A stretch of DNA of 64,000 nucleotides, from assembly GCF_006345805.1 (NCBI RefSeq), contig NC_043001.1, positions 111,724,001 through 111,788,000 of the forward strand, read 5' to 3'. The stretch comes from Octopus sinensis. Lineage: Eukaryota. The position numbers and the translations under genes were made by a program. The notes under the pieces are model-generated. The model was not told where the DNA came from. It searched no databases and saw only the letters and a list, made by a program, of their open reading frames with translations. Below are positions 3,625 to 47,602 of the stretch, one piece after another (position 1 is the stretch's first letter; each line of letters opens with the position of its first letter).

Positions 3625-3807
3625 TTCAGAGATGTACTTGCATAGCAAGTGACCTGATCTGAGACCGCGTGCTGGATCGAAAACAATTGCAGCGTGGAAG
3701 GTGTTTATAAGTCATTTAAGAAACACACAAAAACCGTTAGATTCTAACACAAACGTTTTTTTGTGTTTCTTAAATGGCTTATAAACACCTTCCATACTGC
3801 AATTGTT
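3625..3807. repeat. Asymmetric inverted repeat, probable PLE pseudo-LTR fragment
   Basis: Arms 3682-3737 and 3752-3807 are reverse complements; left arm has an unpaired extension; single-arm relative at ~49200-49380. Confidence 0.7.
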
Positions 3808-4334
3808 ATTATATTTCATTTTATTTCAAAATACGGTGGATCACTCTTCTGTAGGTATGCCATATGTGCAATATAACGACACAGATAATAATGTGTGTGT
3901 GTGTATAACCGTAGTAAGCTCTATTCATATTCGTTCTATATTTATATCTGTAGAAGACCAGTTTTCTGTTTTTTCCCAGCTTACCTTCACAATAAAGACT
4001 GTAGAAGAACACTTTCGTTTTATTCCCTCCCTACCTTCAGAATAGAAACTGTAACTTAGATTTCACTCCAATGTTTTTCCTTTATTTCACGTGTTCCACA
4101 TCAGAATTTATGAGGTCAGCTGTCATTTTCCTATCTCATTTCAGCATATTTGTACAACTTTTCATTTGAAACTACCCATTTTCCCTAAACCTGGGAAGAA
4201 ACAAATTCGGTGTGGGCACTCTTCTGTAGGTATGCTATATGTGTAATATAACAACACACATAATAGCCTGTGTGTATGTGTGTATGTGTGTGTGTGTAGC
4301 TGTAATAAAGTATATTACTTTATATTGCTATAAA

Positions 4335-5035
4335 ATGTGAGGAGCAGACGTTGAAGGTCATCCAAGTATAAAAGTATTTGACTCGACAATCCAAAGAGTT
4401 GACTCTGTGCATCCGAGTCACTATGAATCTTTCTTTTTGGGGTTGCCTCTTCATGAAATATGAGGACCGACTTCTCCTTCCTAAGAACTATTGATGGTCA
4501 AACTGTTCATACTTGTAGAAAAGCCTGTTTAACCTTAAATTTGTTAGAAGATGACAATCAGTGGGATAGAACAATGGCTGAGGCTTCAGTGTCACGCACA
4601 CCTATTTCTTTCAGAGATCTTTTTGAAATTCTCCCGAATTGTGAAGTAAGTAATCCATTAGCGTTGTGACACAAATATAAGAATGATTTATTAGAAGACT
4701 ACATATATCTAACGCAATTAATATTCCCCGAGAGGGAAATAGCATCCAACGATGACATATATAATTCTGCGTTGGTTGATATTGAAGATCACGTTGTCTC
4801 AATGGGAGGGAAGGAGCTCAGCAAGTTTAGCTTACCTGAAACTCATCGAAATAAGGTGAATAATTTGATCGCAGAAGTTTTGCGAGAAACTTTCTATGAT
4901 ATTGATTCATTAATAAGATTCCTTGAAGAAAATGTCCCGAAACCTTTGCCAGACAAACAACTTGCATTACAACAATCATTAACCAAGTGGCACATAATAG
5001 ACGAGAATTATATGTTTAGACGTACCAGGAGGAAA
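4335..5035 (+). pseudogene. Helitron RepHel remnant (Rep-helicase linker up to Walker A start)
   Basis: Frameshifted VHP..ESFFL..LH / LRTIDG..TCRKAC..LNLLEDDNQW..TMAEA..LF..C..SNP.AL / DIED......GK.LS.F.LP and terminal LDVPGG (cf. LDAPGGTGKT). Confidence 0.8.
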
Positions 5036-6431
5036 TGATATTCTTTGAGTCCATTTTTTTAATCTTTTACGTATTCTGTTCACCTTCTTTGTTCTTAGCT
5101 CTAGGCATTAAAATAAAAGTAGAAAATTTTCTGTTTTGGAAAATCGACCTTGTTTTTGAACCGTGTGAAATAAAATCCAAAAATGAAACAAGTCTGATCG
5201 AAGTTAGAAGCAGTTGTCGTCGTCATTACCTCCCCCTCCTCTATAAAAGTAGAAGTTCAAATTCCACCGAAGGAAAATAGCTCACAGCCATAAAAATTTA
5301 ACGTAGTATTTCTAACAACGGCAATGCTTTACAAGTAGTAAACTCAGGACAGATGACGATATTCCAGATAGCAAATACCTGATCTTGGTCTTACTTTATA
5401 TTGAAAGGAGTATTCTCGTGACAACCGGTGTTGGTGTGTTTACGTCCTCATAACTTTGCGGTTCGACACAAAATTCCTTTAGAATAAGTATCAGTTTTAA
5501 AACAAATACTTGCTAGGGTCGATTCGGTTATCCAAAATTCTTCAAGGAGGTGTACTAGCATGGCCGCTGTCTAATACCTGGAACAAGTCAAAGGTAGGAA
5601 TATAAACGATTTTGCCTGTGTACGGTGTACATAGTAAACAAGAGATCTGCAGGCGATTTCAATTATAGCCTGAAGATACTGCAGCTGATGTCGACCAAAA
5701 GCAAAGAGAATGGAGGTAACATTTAAAAGAATTACGATCGAGAACGCATTTCTATATAAACTGTTCTTTTTTGTAAACCCCAACAAATCATACTCTTACA
5801 ACGTAAACATAATTTGAAGTCATTAAATTTTTTGTAGTAAAAAAAAGAGAACAAATAAAATTAGATAAATGCAAAAATAAAAATCGAAGCTTCATAGCAA
5901 AAAAAAAAAATTATATTTTAAGACAAAAATAATATGAAAAACACATAACTGTTAGTCGTTATGCTTGATGAAAGAATTGAAATAAAATAAAAGACTAAAG
6001 ACTAAAGACTAATCTAAAAAAATAATGTATCAATTTACAAGTTTAACTGAAGCTATATAATGGAATGTTTTGACTCAGTTATCAAAACAAATACACGCCT
6101 AAATAGATTGCTTATAATTAAATTCTGAGCATATATTTATCTCGGAAAGTCTATAAAATTAATTTTCTCTTCGGTACAATAAAATTATTCTCATTGGAAT
6201 TTATTTGATTTAATTATGATAATTATTTCAAGCAGAGACGAAAGCTTGCAAATGATTTAAGGTGGTCACAGACAATTTAAACGTCTGGAGTCCAGGCCTC
6301 GACTGGTTTTATTGACCCGGCTTCTATGAAGGATAAAACTGCCCTCAGTGGGTTTTGAAATCAGAGTATAAAAGAGCAAAAACTAAAAGCCATAAACAAT
6401 TGCTCCGTTTACAAAAACTATATTGATTATA

Positions 6432-6738
6432 GTGGAGGCACATGGCCTAGTCGTTTAGGCAGCAGACTCGCAGTCGAGAGATCGCGGGTTCGAATCTCAG
6501 ACCGGGCAATGGGTGTGTTTATGAGCGAAAGACCTAAGGTTCACGCGGCTCCGGCAGAAGGTAATGGCGAACTTCTGCTGACTCTTTTGCCACAACTTTC
6601 TCTCACTCTTTCTTCCTGCATTTTGCAGCTCAACTACGACAGACCGGGTGTCCCGTTTAGGTGTGGGACCTATACGCCAAGGAAACCAGGAAACCGGCCC
6701 TATGAGCCAGGTGTGGTTCGAGAAGGAACAAACAATAA
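6432..6738 (+). mobile_element. tRNA-derived SINE family C
   Basis: A-box-like TGGCCTAGTCG, B box GGTTCGAATCT; TSD TGATTATA at 6424-6431 and 6739-6746; homologous to 31209-31483 and to the head of 46879. Confidence 0.85.
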
Positions 6739-7348
6739 TGATTATAACAACTGTTTCTAATTTAGGCACAAGGCAGGGCTAGTTTGAGAGAAGCGGGATA
6801 AACGATTACAATAACTTCAGTTCACATTTTATCGAGCTCAAAAAGACGGAATGCAAAGAGGACATAAGCTTCATTTAAACTCATAAAAGTAACAAGCCAG
6901 TATTTACGTCATAACTTTTGGAAATTGCAAACTAATATCTGAATGGGGGTGGTATTCATTTGTGGAAGAGTCATGGAAAAGCAACATTGATCTTGAAGGA
7001 TGTGTCAAAGGGTAGACTTTGTTTTTGGAGGCTTCCCATAATTCATTTAACTGAAATAATAATGGATTTGAGAGAAAGAATTCACGTATCAACCACTTTA
7101 AGTATGAAAATATTGAAACTAGAAGCCTTTTACTTCCGTCTCTGTTGAAGACTAGGTCTTATGGCTGAATATATATTTTCCCAGGCCATTGCATAATGAT
7201 GCCCGTTGTGTAGTTGATGTGTGATTCTTTTGGGTAAAGGGTTTGATGTTAATGTAACCCCGCCATACAGCATTATGTCCATTGGCAATATGAGGAAGTG
7301 AACGGATTTCTAAATAGATACTATGAATTTACAGCTCAGCACTGGCAG

Positions 7349-45790: not shown

Positions 45791-45944
45791 TAGGTTAAAT
45801 CAGTGTTTCTCAAAGGGGAGGCCAATGGGACGGTCGGACAAGATGTTTTCAGAAAATTTGGTTTAAATGTTTGACAACTCAGCACCGTCCATTGGACGGC
45901 GGAGGGGCTTTTGTTCGTGTGTATATATATATATATCTATATGT

Positions 45945-46200
45945 CTTGCAAACAACTTGCACATGCAAGTGCTACCAGTTAAAAGCTCCGTATACCGGAA
46001 GCTAGCAAGTGTATAGGGTCATCAGGAGAGAATGCACGCCGTTTCGGGGCCTACCTCTCGACGGCATCAATGCGCACCGGCCCCCTCACTGATATGAGGC
46101 CCTCGCTTGCTAGATCAGCTGGTTATGAAGAACTCAATATACTTCTAACCATCGCTCATCGTCTCTTTTTAACCAAATCCAGTGGCTAGCCTTCTCCACT
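45945..46200 (-). mobile_element. HERO-like non-LTR retrotransposon 3' end
   Basis: Minus strand VEKASHWIWLKRDDERWLEVY* then a 3' UTR shared with 58545-58648. Confidence 0.65.
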
Positions 46201-46878
46201 ATAATATATATGTGTGTGTGTGTATGTATCTAGGTCTCTGTGTATGCATGTGTATGTCTGTCTTGAATGCGTGTGTATGGGTTTATATATTATACTGCTT
46301 ATATCAGTCGTCCTTGTGTTTTGTTTTGATTTGTTTCGCCCTATTCCGTCTTAAGTTGTCAGATTGTTGGGTGGCGTAGAGTGTGTTACAATTGCATTCA
46401 CATTTTTCTGTTGACCCTCGGACTCCTTTCTATTATGTCTGTGACCTTTGTTATGTATTTGAGTGTTGTGTCAGTTCTATATACAGGTTGGATCTTAACT
46501 TCTATGTTATCTATAAAGCCCCCATTTTTTTTTGTTTAGCATGGTGCTATAGCACTTACGAGCTTTTCCTCTTCTTGAGTCCCGTCAGTGATTCTTTATG
46601 CCCTTTTCTATGCTACGGACTGTCTCTCCAGGGTATATCGCTGTCCTGTTTTTGCACTATCCCTCTGTGCACCATAGACTGCATTCCTAGAATTGCAGTT
46701 TATCTAAAGGCTTAACCTATACGCTATACAGTAAATACTGAATCTACGTGGAGGATAGATAATAGTTGATGAGTGGAAAGGCCAGGAATTTCCATAAAAT
46801 CTCGGTTCAGTAGGATATATTCGTGTGGATATATGTTGTTCATATCGTTATGTATAAATATCTGCATTTATATTCTTT

Positions 46879-47200
46879 GGGCGCAATGGCCCAGTGGTTA
46901 GGGCAGCAGGCTCGCGGTCATAGGATCACGGTTTCGATTCCCAGACCAGGCGTTGTGAGTGTTTACTGAGCGAAAACACCTAAAGCTTCACAAGGCTCCG
47001 CCAGGGGGAAGTGGTGAACCCTGCTGTATTCTGTCACCACGACTTTCTCTCACTCTTTCTTCCTGTTTCTGTTGTACCTGTATTTCAAAAGGGCCAGCCT
47101 TGTCACACTCTCTGTCACGCTGAATCTACTCTCAGCTACTTGCACGTTGATTTCACAAGCAGGCTGTTCTCGTCGTCGTAACTGACGGAGTGCCACGAAA
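46879..47200 (+). mobile_element. Chimeric SINE (family C head and body, family D tail)
   Basis: 46879-47065 matches 6432-6620; GTTGTACCTGTATTTCAAA...GACGGAGTGC matches 42908-43091. Confidence 0.8.
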
Positions 47201-47239
47201 ATATTCATATATATATATATATATATATATATATATAAT

Positions 47240-47602
47240 AAATATTAGGGAATAAATCCAAACTTACAGGGAAAAATCAGATTTAGGATTGAATCCAATT
47301 TTATAGTAAAATATTATATTATATTAAATTAGAGACAAAACCACTATTAGGCAAATCATACAATGAAAAACTTAAGCCAATACATAAGATTATTTAATTT
47401 ATATAATTTAAATATATAACAAAATTATTAAAAAATAATTAATAATAATATATATATTAATATAACACTACGATTATTTTTTTAATAATTTTGTTATATA
47501 TTTAAATTATATAAATTAAATAATCTTATGTATTGGCTTAAGTTTTTCATTGTATGATTTGCCTAATAGTGGTTTTGTCTCTAATTTAATATAATATAAT
47601 AT
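47240..47602. repeat. ~290 bp near-perfect inverted repeat plus one-sided tail in (TA)n
   Basis: Arms 47311-47439 and 47473-47602; left extension 47240-47310; the arm matches the end of the 33.5-35.2 kb element. Confidence 0.88.

What the first reader, a model, noticed from the sequence alone, without database searches (positions are those of the whole stretch)
3625..47602. Recurrent asymmetric hairpin inserts in (TA)n: a size series of self-inverted Penelope-like ends
Seen: at least eight sequence-unrelated inverted repeats (3682, 24765, 25298-28110, 28826, 29871, 30385, 37866, 47311; older one at 44077). Most share one design: two inverted arms, one arm with a 50-120 bp extra tail, and (TA)n flanks. 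Several carry hammerhead motifs, the largest has a GIY-YIG, and single-arm relatives occur elsewhere (35140, 48030, 49200). Established: PLEs carry hammerheads in pseudo-LTRs and often have inverted partial pLTRs. Inference: many PLE families here target (TA)n and routinely leave snap-back mini-palindromes, seeding the genome with hairpin/dsRNA and cruciform-forming modules at roughly one per 7 kb in this window.
Basis: partly seen in the sequence, partly recalled or inferred. Interest (0 to 1): 0.75.

Follow-up and report, generated by a model that had tools for sequence, protein, structure and literature searches.

The report
Back-to-back Penelope retrotransposon insertion stumps
These lopsided mirror-image repeats are real, truncated insertions of Penelope-like jumping genes in an already described layout, and their seams suggest that each was likely built from two DNA copies started at the two cut ends of the target rather than by one strand folding back.

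Summary
All nine inverted repeats are real (eight with short loops, none in 20 shuffles). They are 3' ends of nine unrelated repeat families. Six link to a Hydra-type Penelope-like (PLE) GIY-YIG endonuclease, two of these also to reverse transcriptase, one through an intact 727-codon frame. One links tentatively to a Neptune-type enzyme, one is a ~545-bp non-coding hammerhead tandem unit, one is unlinked. In three young families one arm ends at a fixed tail (65, 71, 114 bp) and the other at a fixed inner site, both beside (TA)n (84-100% vs 5% background), while the seam varies. This layout is published (PMC3846280, PMC8557442, PMC4209133), and this scan noted it before on this and other genomes. 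The tail-less arm is sometimes kilobases longer. Arms of one insertion share rare alleles. At a seam hot spot with 314 genomic copies, either arm is the longer (14:11), and 0 of 34 have two tails. Most likely two cDNAs are primed at two fixed sites of one source RNA and joined by microhomology. Only three window palindromes hold a hammerhead core; six have TA flanks.

The parts
3625..3807 (-). Family G stump: tail 3625-3681, tail-bearing arm 3682-3738, 13-bp loop, tail-less inverted arm 3752-3807. Longer copies carry a hammerhead-like core with G3-C8; one copy has a Neptune-type endonuclease upstream.
24708..24956 (-). Family F stump (older): tail 24708-24764 beside (AAT)n, arms 24765-24856 and 24863-24956, decayed hammerhead cores in both arms. 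Hydra-type endonuclease C-terminus in the long inverted arm of L251.
25298..27652 (-). Family A tail-less inverted arm (2.35 kb in the window; 2483 on the family scale): frameshifted ORF end with Asn-rich linker and GIY-YIG domain (about 27652-26870), long 3' UTR, canonical hammerhead core at 25412, ends at the fixed inner site next to (TA)n.
27653..28115 (+). Family A tail-bearing arm with canonical type I hammerhead core at 27996 (long stem II).
28116..28229 (+). Family A tail, 114 bp, followed by (TA)n; fixed 3' end in 31 of 31 copies examined.
28826..29145 (+). Family E stump: arms meet without a loop at 28931/28932 on a self-complementary 6-mer; tail about 29046-29145. Parent unit is a ~545-bp hammerhead-bearing tandem repeat with no coding frame seen.
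29845..30075 (+). Family H stump (decayed, internal deletion): arms about 29871-29908 and 29988-30025, tail to about 30075. Family hammerhead-like core has U3-A8. No coding parent found.
30293..30471 (-). Family D stump: tail about 30293-30372, arms 30385-30425 and 30430-30471, (TA)n on both sides. Hydra-type endonuclease upstream in L182.
37866..38092 (+). Family B stump: inverted arm 37866-37941, 5-bp loop, arm 37947-38026 with minimal hammerhead core (C4 variant) at 37956, tail 38027-38092, (TA)n on both sides. The seam lies on the family's hot spot. Intact parent frame in L204.
44079..45000 (+). Old head-to-head insertion (arms 44079-44407 and 44411-44748, 72% alike); family homology continues to at least 45000; no (TA)n flank. 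Co-oriented Hydra-type endonuclease upstream in L300, L305, L307.
47240..47602 (-). Family C stump: tail 47240-47310, arms 47311-47439 and 47473-47602, 33-bp loop, (TA)n on both sides. Family hammerhead lies just beyond the seam. Hydra-type endonuclease C-terminus in L147.
34852..35213 (+). Single tail-less arm related to family C (85%), with a hammerhead core at 34852 and (TA)n at the inner end.
48033..48094 (+). Short fragment related to the family E tail (85%), in TA-rich flanks.
49201..49390 (-). Single tail-bearing arm of family G (84%).

Best explanation
These are 5'-truncated, head-to-head insertions of several endonuclease-bearing Penelope-like retrotransposon families, mostly Hydra-type, and each is likely written by two reverse-transcription events, one from each cut end of a (TA)n target. 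Shown: fixed tail end, fixed inner end, one of each per insertion, variable seam, coding parents for six families, (TA)n flanks, shared alleles between arms. Inferred: the enzyme (a predicted dimer in PMC11167929) cuts both strands; one end primes at the distal start site and copies the tail, the other primes 54-114 nt further in; both copy the same RNA or RNAs of the same source locus; both stop early, often within 100-300 nt; the two identical cDNA ends are joined through 0-6 nt of microhomology, preferentially at self-complementary words, or with a short fill-in.
For: Family A: 28 of 31 insertions have an adjacent inverted arm and all 28 end at the same base; seams vary from 229 to 3437 nt. 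Family B: 25 of 30 inverted, 19 end exactly at 65; family C: 24 of 30, 20 exactly at 71. (TA)4 within 20 nt: A 31/31 tail ends and 27/28 inner ends, B 28/30 and 24/25, C 25/30 and 21/24, against 4.9% background. The tail-less arm reaches further 5' than the tail arm in 4 of 28 A copies by 150-2400 nt although the query selected long tail arms, and in B (L118, L134). Arms of one insertion share minor alleles: A 24 vs 2.2 expected, B 31 vs 7.4, C 36 vs 5.8, each above all 2000 permutations; 43 concordant vs 5 discordant at polymorphic sites. B hot spot: 314 loci with one 30-nt centre; of 50 listed, 25 perfect and 25 asymmetric, in both subfamilies; of the 25 asymmetric, 14 have the tail-less arm longer and 11 the tail arm. 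Of 34 loci picked by seam alone, 31 have one tail plus one inner end at (TA)n, 0 have two tails, 0 two inner ends, 3 have one side interrupted or another flank. In vitro, an Anolis PLE cuts and extends both strands and starts at two sites that bound the tail (PMC11167929).
Against: No intermediate was observed; the mechanism rests on end products. Allele sharing can also come from gene conversion or from one self-primed molecule. In vitro the two start sites did not differ between top and bottom strand (PMC11167929), which does not by itself predict the strict one-tail rule seen here. 10 of 28 A seams have 1-50 extra bases and 3 are blunt, so microhomology is not universal, and BLAST ends make these counts approximate. 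3 of 31 A, 5 of 30 B, 6 of 30 C and 17 of 30 D copies show no adjacent inverted arm. Families E and H have no coding parent here, and C, D, F and G are each linked by one locus. Genome searches score only 40 candidates, chosen for likeness to the query.
Confidence: 0.72

Rival explanations
1. Self-priming (fold-back) of one nucleic acid makes a hairpin first, for example on an antisense template as proposed for rotifer Penelope; the endonuclease then trims and inserts the two ends, one with and one without the tail.
For: Explains shared alleles and seams at self-complementary words. Proposed in print (PMC3846280 Discussion). If trimming assigns the tail to either arm at random it also gives the 14:11 ratio.
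Against: Needs loops of up to 2.4 kb closed by 0-4 nt of pairing. Plain snap-back of the tail-primed cDNA cannot make the tail-less arm the longer one, yet this is the case in 14 of 25 hot-spot copies and in the window's own copies at 25298 and 37866. Independent trimming would give two-tail products; 0 of 34 seen.
Confidence: 0.18
2. The short palindromes are fixed non-autonomous elements (MITE-like, or palindromic master loci) that are copied as whole units.
For: A query holding the whole 37866 palindrome returned 40 of 40 best hits of the same length, and the 30 inspected share its seam; 314 loci share one centre.
Against: That result is selection by the query: a one-arm query gives varied seams. 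The centre comes in three versions, in both subfamilies, with the tail on either side. Alleles follow the insertion, not the left or right arm. The arms are 3' ends of coding elements. Two copies (L112, L114) whose tail arm runs through the hot-spot seam could be secondary copies or later deletions.
Confidence: 0.06
3. The palindromes are assembly fold-back artefacts, or arose after insertion by rearrangement at (TA)n.
For: Inverted repeats trouble assemblies (PMC8557442). The window's own seam at 27652/27653 was not seen bridged in the rows shown (tables were cut).
Against: Both sides return to different unique flanks and end at family-fixed positions. Arms differ by 1-28%. Contigs of other runs hold seams of other copies at about single-copy depth, 19 contigs run from 28115 into (TA)n, and one contig of run X3 spans the 24765 centre.
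Confidence: 0.03

Closest known systems
Hydra clade of C-terminal-endonuclease Penelope-like elements (Craig et al. 2021, PMC8557442; includes Hydra-1_Obim from an octopus, 2507 bp, (TA)n)
   Same: RWK and DKT-type motifs, CxCX5C linker, no CCHH inside GIY-YIG, CxxC and CxH around the catalytic E and N, hammerheads, (TA)n targets, partial tandems with an inverted 5'-truncated copy.
   Different: Units are longer (3.35 and 4.6 kb vs generally under 3 kb) with 3' UTRs of 1.1-1.7 kb; tails are 65-114 bp vs the 30-40 bp given for PLEs. Five short motifs of families A, B and C were not found in the paper's supplement, so these look like undescribed families. Not placed on a tree.
Inverted pLTR plus optional tail of EN+ Penelope elements (Adineta vaga Pen2a_Av and relatives, PMC3846280)
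   Same: Head-to-head junctions, palindromes at the seam, one-sided tail, AT-rich targets, Asn-rich linker inserts.
   Different: That paper explains the palindromes by self-priming on an antisense template; the counts here favour two cDNAs. Here most copies are stumps of 150-600 bp and very numerous.
Poseidon of Anolis carolinensis in vitro (Frangieh et al. 2024, PMC11167929)
   Same: Two fixed reverse-transcription start sites bounding the tail; both target strands cut and extended; AT-rich target.
   Different: Another clade; the parts read do not work out how the inverted copy is joined, and report no strand difference in start site.
Minimal PLE hammerheads and opposite-strand pairs in Schistosoma (Cervera and De la Pena 2014, PMC4209133)
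   Same: Minimal type I motifs, extra base between positions 9 and 10.1, U3-A8 core variant, pairs 100-700 bp apart on opposite strands.
   Different: Family G shows G3-C8, not reported in the passages read; families A, C, D and E have a long stem II.
Animal non-LTR retrozymes (bioRxiv 10.64898/2026.07.22.740005)
   Same: Family E is a short, non-coding, hammerhead-bearing tandem unit in a PLE-rich genome.
   Different: Here the unit also shows the PLE insertion signature (inverted arm, fixed inner end, ~100-bp tail); the word 'tail' does not occur in that preprint's main text.
Twin priming of LINE-1 (recalled, no call)
   Same: Second target strand primes a second cDNA on the RNA; the two are joined by microhomology.
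   Different: In L1 the second primer lands at a variable site and the inverted part does not duplicate the 3' part; here the site is fixed and the arms overlap.

Membership tests
EN+ Penelope-like element | One ORF with RT and C-terminal GIY-YIG endonuclease | tested here: met
   Family B: intact 727-codon frame in L204:4612-6792; family A: RT and EN in frameshifted pieces in L205 and others. Read by motif; Pfam found nothing at cut-off. Only EN parts for C, D, F, 44077.
EN+ Penelope-like element | Pseudo-LTR from a partial tandem, with adjacent inverted 5'-truncated copy | tested here: met
   L204: inverted copy 3128-4358, pLTR 4357-4596, ORF, pLTR 7710-7948. Family A tandem with 3' ends 4614 bp apart.
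EN+ Penelope-like element | One-sided tail (30-40 bp in print) | tested here: met
   One-sided and fixed, but 54-114 bp long.
EN+ Penelope-like element | Hammerhead motif in the pLTR | tested here: met
   Core motif conserved in families A (42 of 43 arms), C (23 of 24), B (CCGATGA or CTGATGA in 72 of 83). Motif only: Rfam gave no hammerhead hit, minimum-energy folds do not give the active fold, cleavage untested.
Hydra clade | RWK motif near the N-terminus | tested here: met
   Present in families A and B.
Hydra clade | DKG modified to DKT | tested here: met
   DKT in L202 and L203, EKT in L204 (family B); region not read in family A.
Hydra clade | CxCX5C linker before GIY-YIG | tested here: met
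   Exact in family A and in L305 of the 44077 family; second cysteine replaced in family B.
Hydra clade | CCHH motif absent; CxxC and CxH around catalytic E and N | tested here: met
   No cysteine pair inside GIY-YIG in A or B; CxxC and CxH in A, B, C, F, and in broken form in D and 44077.
Hydra clade | N-terminal GxKF/Y not conserved | tested here: inconclusive
   Absent in A; a GxKY-like word follows RWK in B and may be chance.
Hydra clade | Insertion into (TA)n | tested here: met
   A, B, C, D 83-100% of tail ends vs 4.9% background; F 6 of 21 (13 of 21 (ATT)n). Empty sites not seen.
Hydra clade | Generally shorter than 3 kb (descriptive, not diagnostic) | tested here: not met
   Units of 3.35 kb (B) and 4.6 kb (A).
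Hydra clade | Placement in the RT phylogeny | not tested
Neptune clade (family G only) | CX2-5CxxC linker and CCHH in the endonuclease | tested here: inconclusive
   Seen in a frameshifted frame upstream of one copy (L362); a second copy (L359) has a different such frame, so the link is not secure.
MITE / TIR DNA transposon | Fixed length and symmetric terminal inverted repeats | tested here: not met
   Lengths and seams vary and ends are asymmetric.
Non-LTR retrozyme (family E) | Short non-coding tandem unit with a type I hammerhead | tested here: met
   Periods of about 540-550 bp in L074 and L075 with a hammerhead motif.
Non-LTR retrozyme (family E) | Self-cleavage and circular RNA | not testable with these tools
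   No raw RNA reads were offered.

The most novel reading that the evidence does not exclude
The seams record the unsolved step of Penelope integration: one enzyme complex primes both target ends on the same RNA at two fixed, ordered sites, and the two identical cDNA ends anneal to each other symmetrically. This would replace the published antisense self-priming idea and explain the tail, the inverted copy and the mini-palindromes together. A side claim: one family keeps a natural G3-C8 swapped hammerhead core.
Probability: 0.55. Interest if true: 0.6.

Novelty: new member of a known kind. Interest (0 to 1): 0.36.

Why it matters
The layout is known, but how the inverted copy forms is still open in the papers read. 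Young, numerous families give counts that separate the models and make a bench test easy to state (two marked RNAs, one blocked strand). In practice these stumps are easy to mis-annotate as MITEs or microRNA hairpins (the top Rfam hits are sub-threshold microRNA models on them), and Pfam misses the parent protein. Whether they feed dsRNA, editing or small-RNA pathways is untested.

Tried and rejected
Rfam scan: no hammerhead family among the 150 of 160 matches listed; hits were sub-threshold microRNA models. Pfam: 0 families on the intact frame. Folding four arms as RNA gave no unusual stability (z -0.7 to 1.3) and not the hammerhead fold. Fixed-length master palindrome for 37866: raised, rejected. 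One search had a script bug and was redone. 'Inverted-only' differences exceed 'forward-only' ones; I put this down to query selection and one misaligned copy (L019) and did not use it. Expression: no RNA holder listed, so nothing on transcription, editing or small RNAs. No empty site was seen in the contig joints shown. Depth sums were not used as copy numbers. The idea that the short arms are run-off products from the transcript's upstream pLTR could not be tested. Literature: 'Penelope' with 'twin priming' gave 2 papers, neither on PLE integration by title and abstract; one search gave nothing further; natural G3-C8 was not found. Older subscription papers and bioRxiv supplements were not available and may already hold these points.

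
Full report
Observation. The window (G000:C5:111724001-111788000, a 2.7-Gb genome rich in microsatellites) holds all nine inverted repeats named. The long pair 25298-28115 is 99% alike over 450 bp. 29871 is decayed and was confirmed through its family. The nine share only short AT-rich matches. Each has extra family sequence on one side. Six have TA flanks; three hold a hammerhead core.

What the families are. I searched the own genome 12 times (40 candidates scored per DNA search, 27; up to 30 loci kept). 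Family A (25298): copies are 98-99% alike; longer ones carry RT and a GIY-YIG domain with RWK, CxCX5C, no CCHH, CxxC and CxH, and one locus is a tandem with 3' ends 4614 bp apart. Family B (37866): L204 shows the textbook layout of inverted truncated copy, pseudo-LTR, intact 727-codon frame and pseudo-LTR with tail; its endonuclease is 34% identical to that of A. Hydra-type endonuclease pieces lie in the same sense upstream in C (L147), D (L182), F (L251) and the 44077 family (L300, L305, L307). These motifs are the ones listed for the Hydra clade in PMC8557442 (section 11). Family G (3682) has a Neptune-type frame upstream in one copy. Family E (28826) is a ~545-bp tandem unit with a hammerhead motif and no frame seen. 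Family H (29871) is unlinked.

End rules. Family A: I examined 31 insertions (window copy plus 30 others; L001 is the window, and four loci of one tandem and its duplicate were set aside). 28 have an adjacent inverted arm and all 28 end at the base matching window 28115; tail arms run 577-3834 nt and inverted arms 229-3437 nt. Family B, one-arm query: 25 of 30 inverted, 19 ending exactly 65 nt from the tail end. Family C: 24 of 30, 20 exactly at 71, one call spurious. D: 13 of 30 within 1.6 kb, mostly near 80. E ends near 100, G near 54. (TA)4 lies within 20 nt of 31/31, 28/30 and 25/30 tail ends and 27/28, 24/25 and 21/24 inner ends in A, B, C, and within 24 nt of 26/30 tail ends in D, 7/30 in G and 6/21 in F, against 4.9% background.

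Mechanism tests. (1) Arm length: the tail-less arm reaches further 5' than the tail arm in 4 of 28 A copies, including the window copy, whose GIY-YIG lies only in the tail-less arm. A tail-primed cDNA folding on itself cannot supply that sequence. (2) Alleles: in 28, 21 and 22 insertions with enough overlap, both arms carry the same minor allele 24, 31 and 36 times, against permutation means of 2.2, 7.4 and 5.8 (maxima 11, 19, 24 in 2000); at polymorphic sites 43 concordant, 5 discordant. Both arms therefore come from one source, or were later converted. (3) Hot spot: a whole-palindrome query returned only same-length copies, which first looked like a fixed element. A seam pattern has 314 exact genomic loci; of the 50 listed, 25 are perfect and 25 asymmetric around a self-complementary 4-mer, both subfamilies are present, and 48 of 50 have the same subfamily base in both arms. 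All 25 asymmetric ones were read: 14 have the tail-less arm longer, 11 the tail arm (12:11, two more resolved). Two identical cDNA ends pairing there over 6 of 8 bases would resolve to these three products (inference). (4) One-tail rule: of 34 loci chosen by seam alone, 31 have one tail and one inner end at (TA)n, none has two tails or two inner ends. (5) A seams: 15 of 28 overlap, mostly by 1-4 nt, 3 are blunt, 10 have 1-50 extra bases (approximate).

Artefact check. Contigs of four runs (three studies; some may be the source sample; library type not on record) were laid on 24500-29160. They show joints between left-arm and right-arm positions at about the depth of the unique flank, which are seams of other copies; 19 contigs of X1 run from 28115 into (TA)n; one X3 contig spans the 24765 centre. 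The window's own A seam was not among the rows shown.

What is known. PMC8557442 (parts 1-2 of 10, section 11, passages, supplement rows) describes the inverted 5'-truncated copy, the 30-40 bp tail and (TA)n targeting, and lists a Hydra family from an octopus. PMC3846280 (passages and Discussion) reports palindromes at head-to-head junctions and proposes antisense self-priming. PMC4209133 (parts 1-2 of 4) reports opposite-strand hammerhead pairs and U3-A8. PMC11167929 (parts 1-2 of 4) shows two start sites and extension of both strands. The retrozyme preprint (part 1 of 5 and passages), PMC3088659 (passages) and PMC13282606 (passages) were also seen. Earlier notes of this scan reached the PLE reading on this genome and the two-ended reading on others; they are not independent support. 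The L1 twin-priming comparison and hammerhead numbering are partly recalled.

Verdict. Real, abundant and ordinary in kind: new families of a known clade in a known layout. The added value is the set of counts against snap-back and for two joined cDNAs, the long tails, and a possible natural G3-C8 core. Interest 0.36.

Noticed in passing
family G, e.g. L210 and L209 (window 3625-3807 is cut short of it): Hammerhead-like motif with positions 3 and 8 swapped to G and C (core GTGAACA plus an extra G) in 23 of 26 readable arms, with stems I and II and GAAA intact; family H has the known U3-A8 version in 12 of 12. Predicted cleavage triplet is poor; activity untested; natural G3-C8 not found.
   Followed up: partly
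family E, L073-L075 (window 28826-29145): A short non-coding hammerhead tandem unit that inserts with the PLE signature (inverted arm, ~100-bp tail), which links a retrozyme-like repeat to PLE machinery by its ends.
   Followed up: partly
family C, L145-L170: Most copies reaching beyond 285 nt from the tail end carry a short upstream sequence that stops by about 325 nt, unlike the coding-linked UTR of L147: a short non-coding subfamily or run-off from a master's upstream pLTR.
   Followed up: no
window 27652-27350 and L205: Family A has an asparagine-rich linker of about 170 residues between RT and endonuclease, like the inserts described in Adineta vaga.
   Followed up: no
window 24957-25240: Fragment of another high-copy repeat abutting the 24765 palindrome; a loose-end consensus resembles a hammerhead stem III, so it may be a further PLE end.
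   Followed up: no
window 14694-14952 and 15488-15746: Inverted pair of a dispersed short repeat with many other copies in the window; not of the one-tail design.
   Followed up: no
window 31718-32283, 62107-62678, 12796-13038: Element of about 565 bp with ~30-bp terminal inverted repeats and a shorter derivative; looks like an ordinary TIR element.
   Followed up: no
window 51172-51279: Weak U6 snRNA-like match (30 bits, below the gathering score of 44).
   Followed up: no
L034 and L035: The same full-length family A tandem occurs on C1 and on small contig C9907 with the same spacing, likely one locus assembled twice.
   Followed up: partly
L123, L135, L361: Stumps of different families sit end to end in one (TA)n tract (B next to C-like or G; G next to C-like), so tracts are reused as targets.
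   Followed up: no
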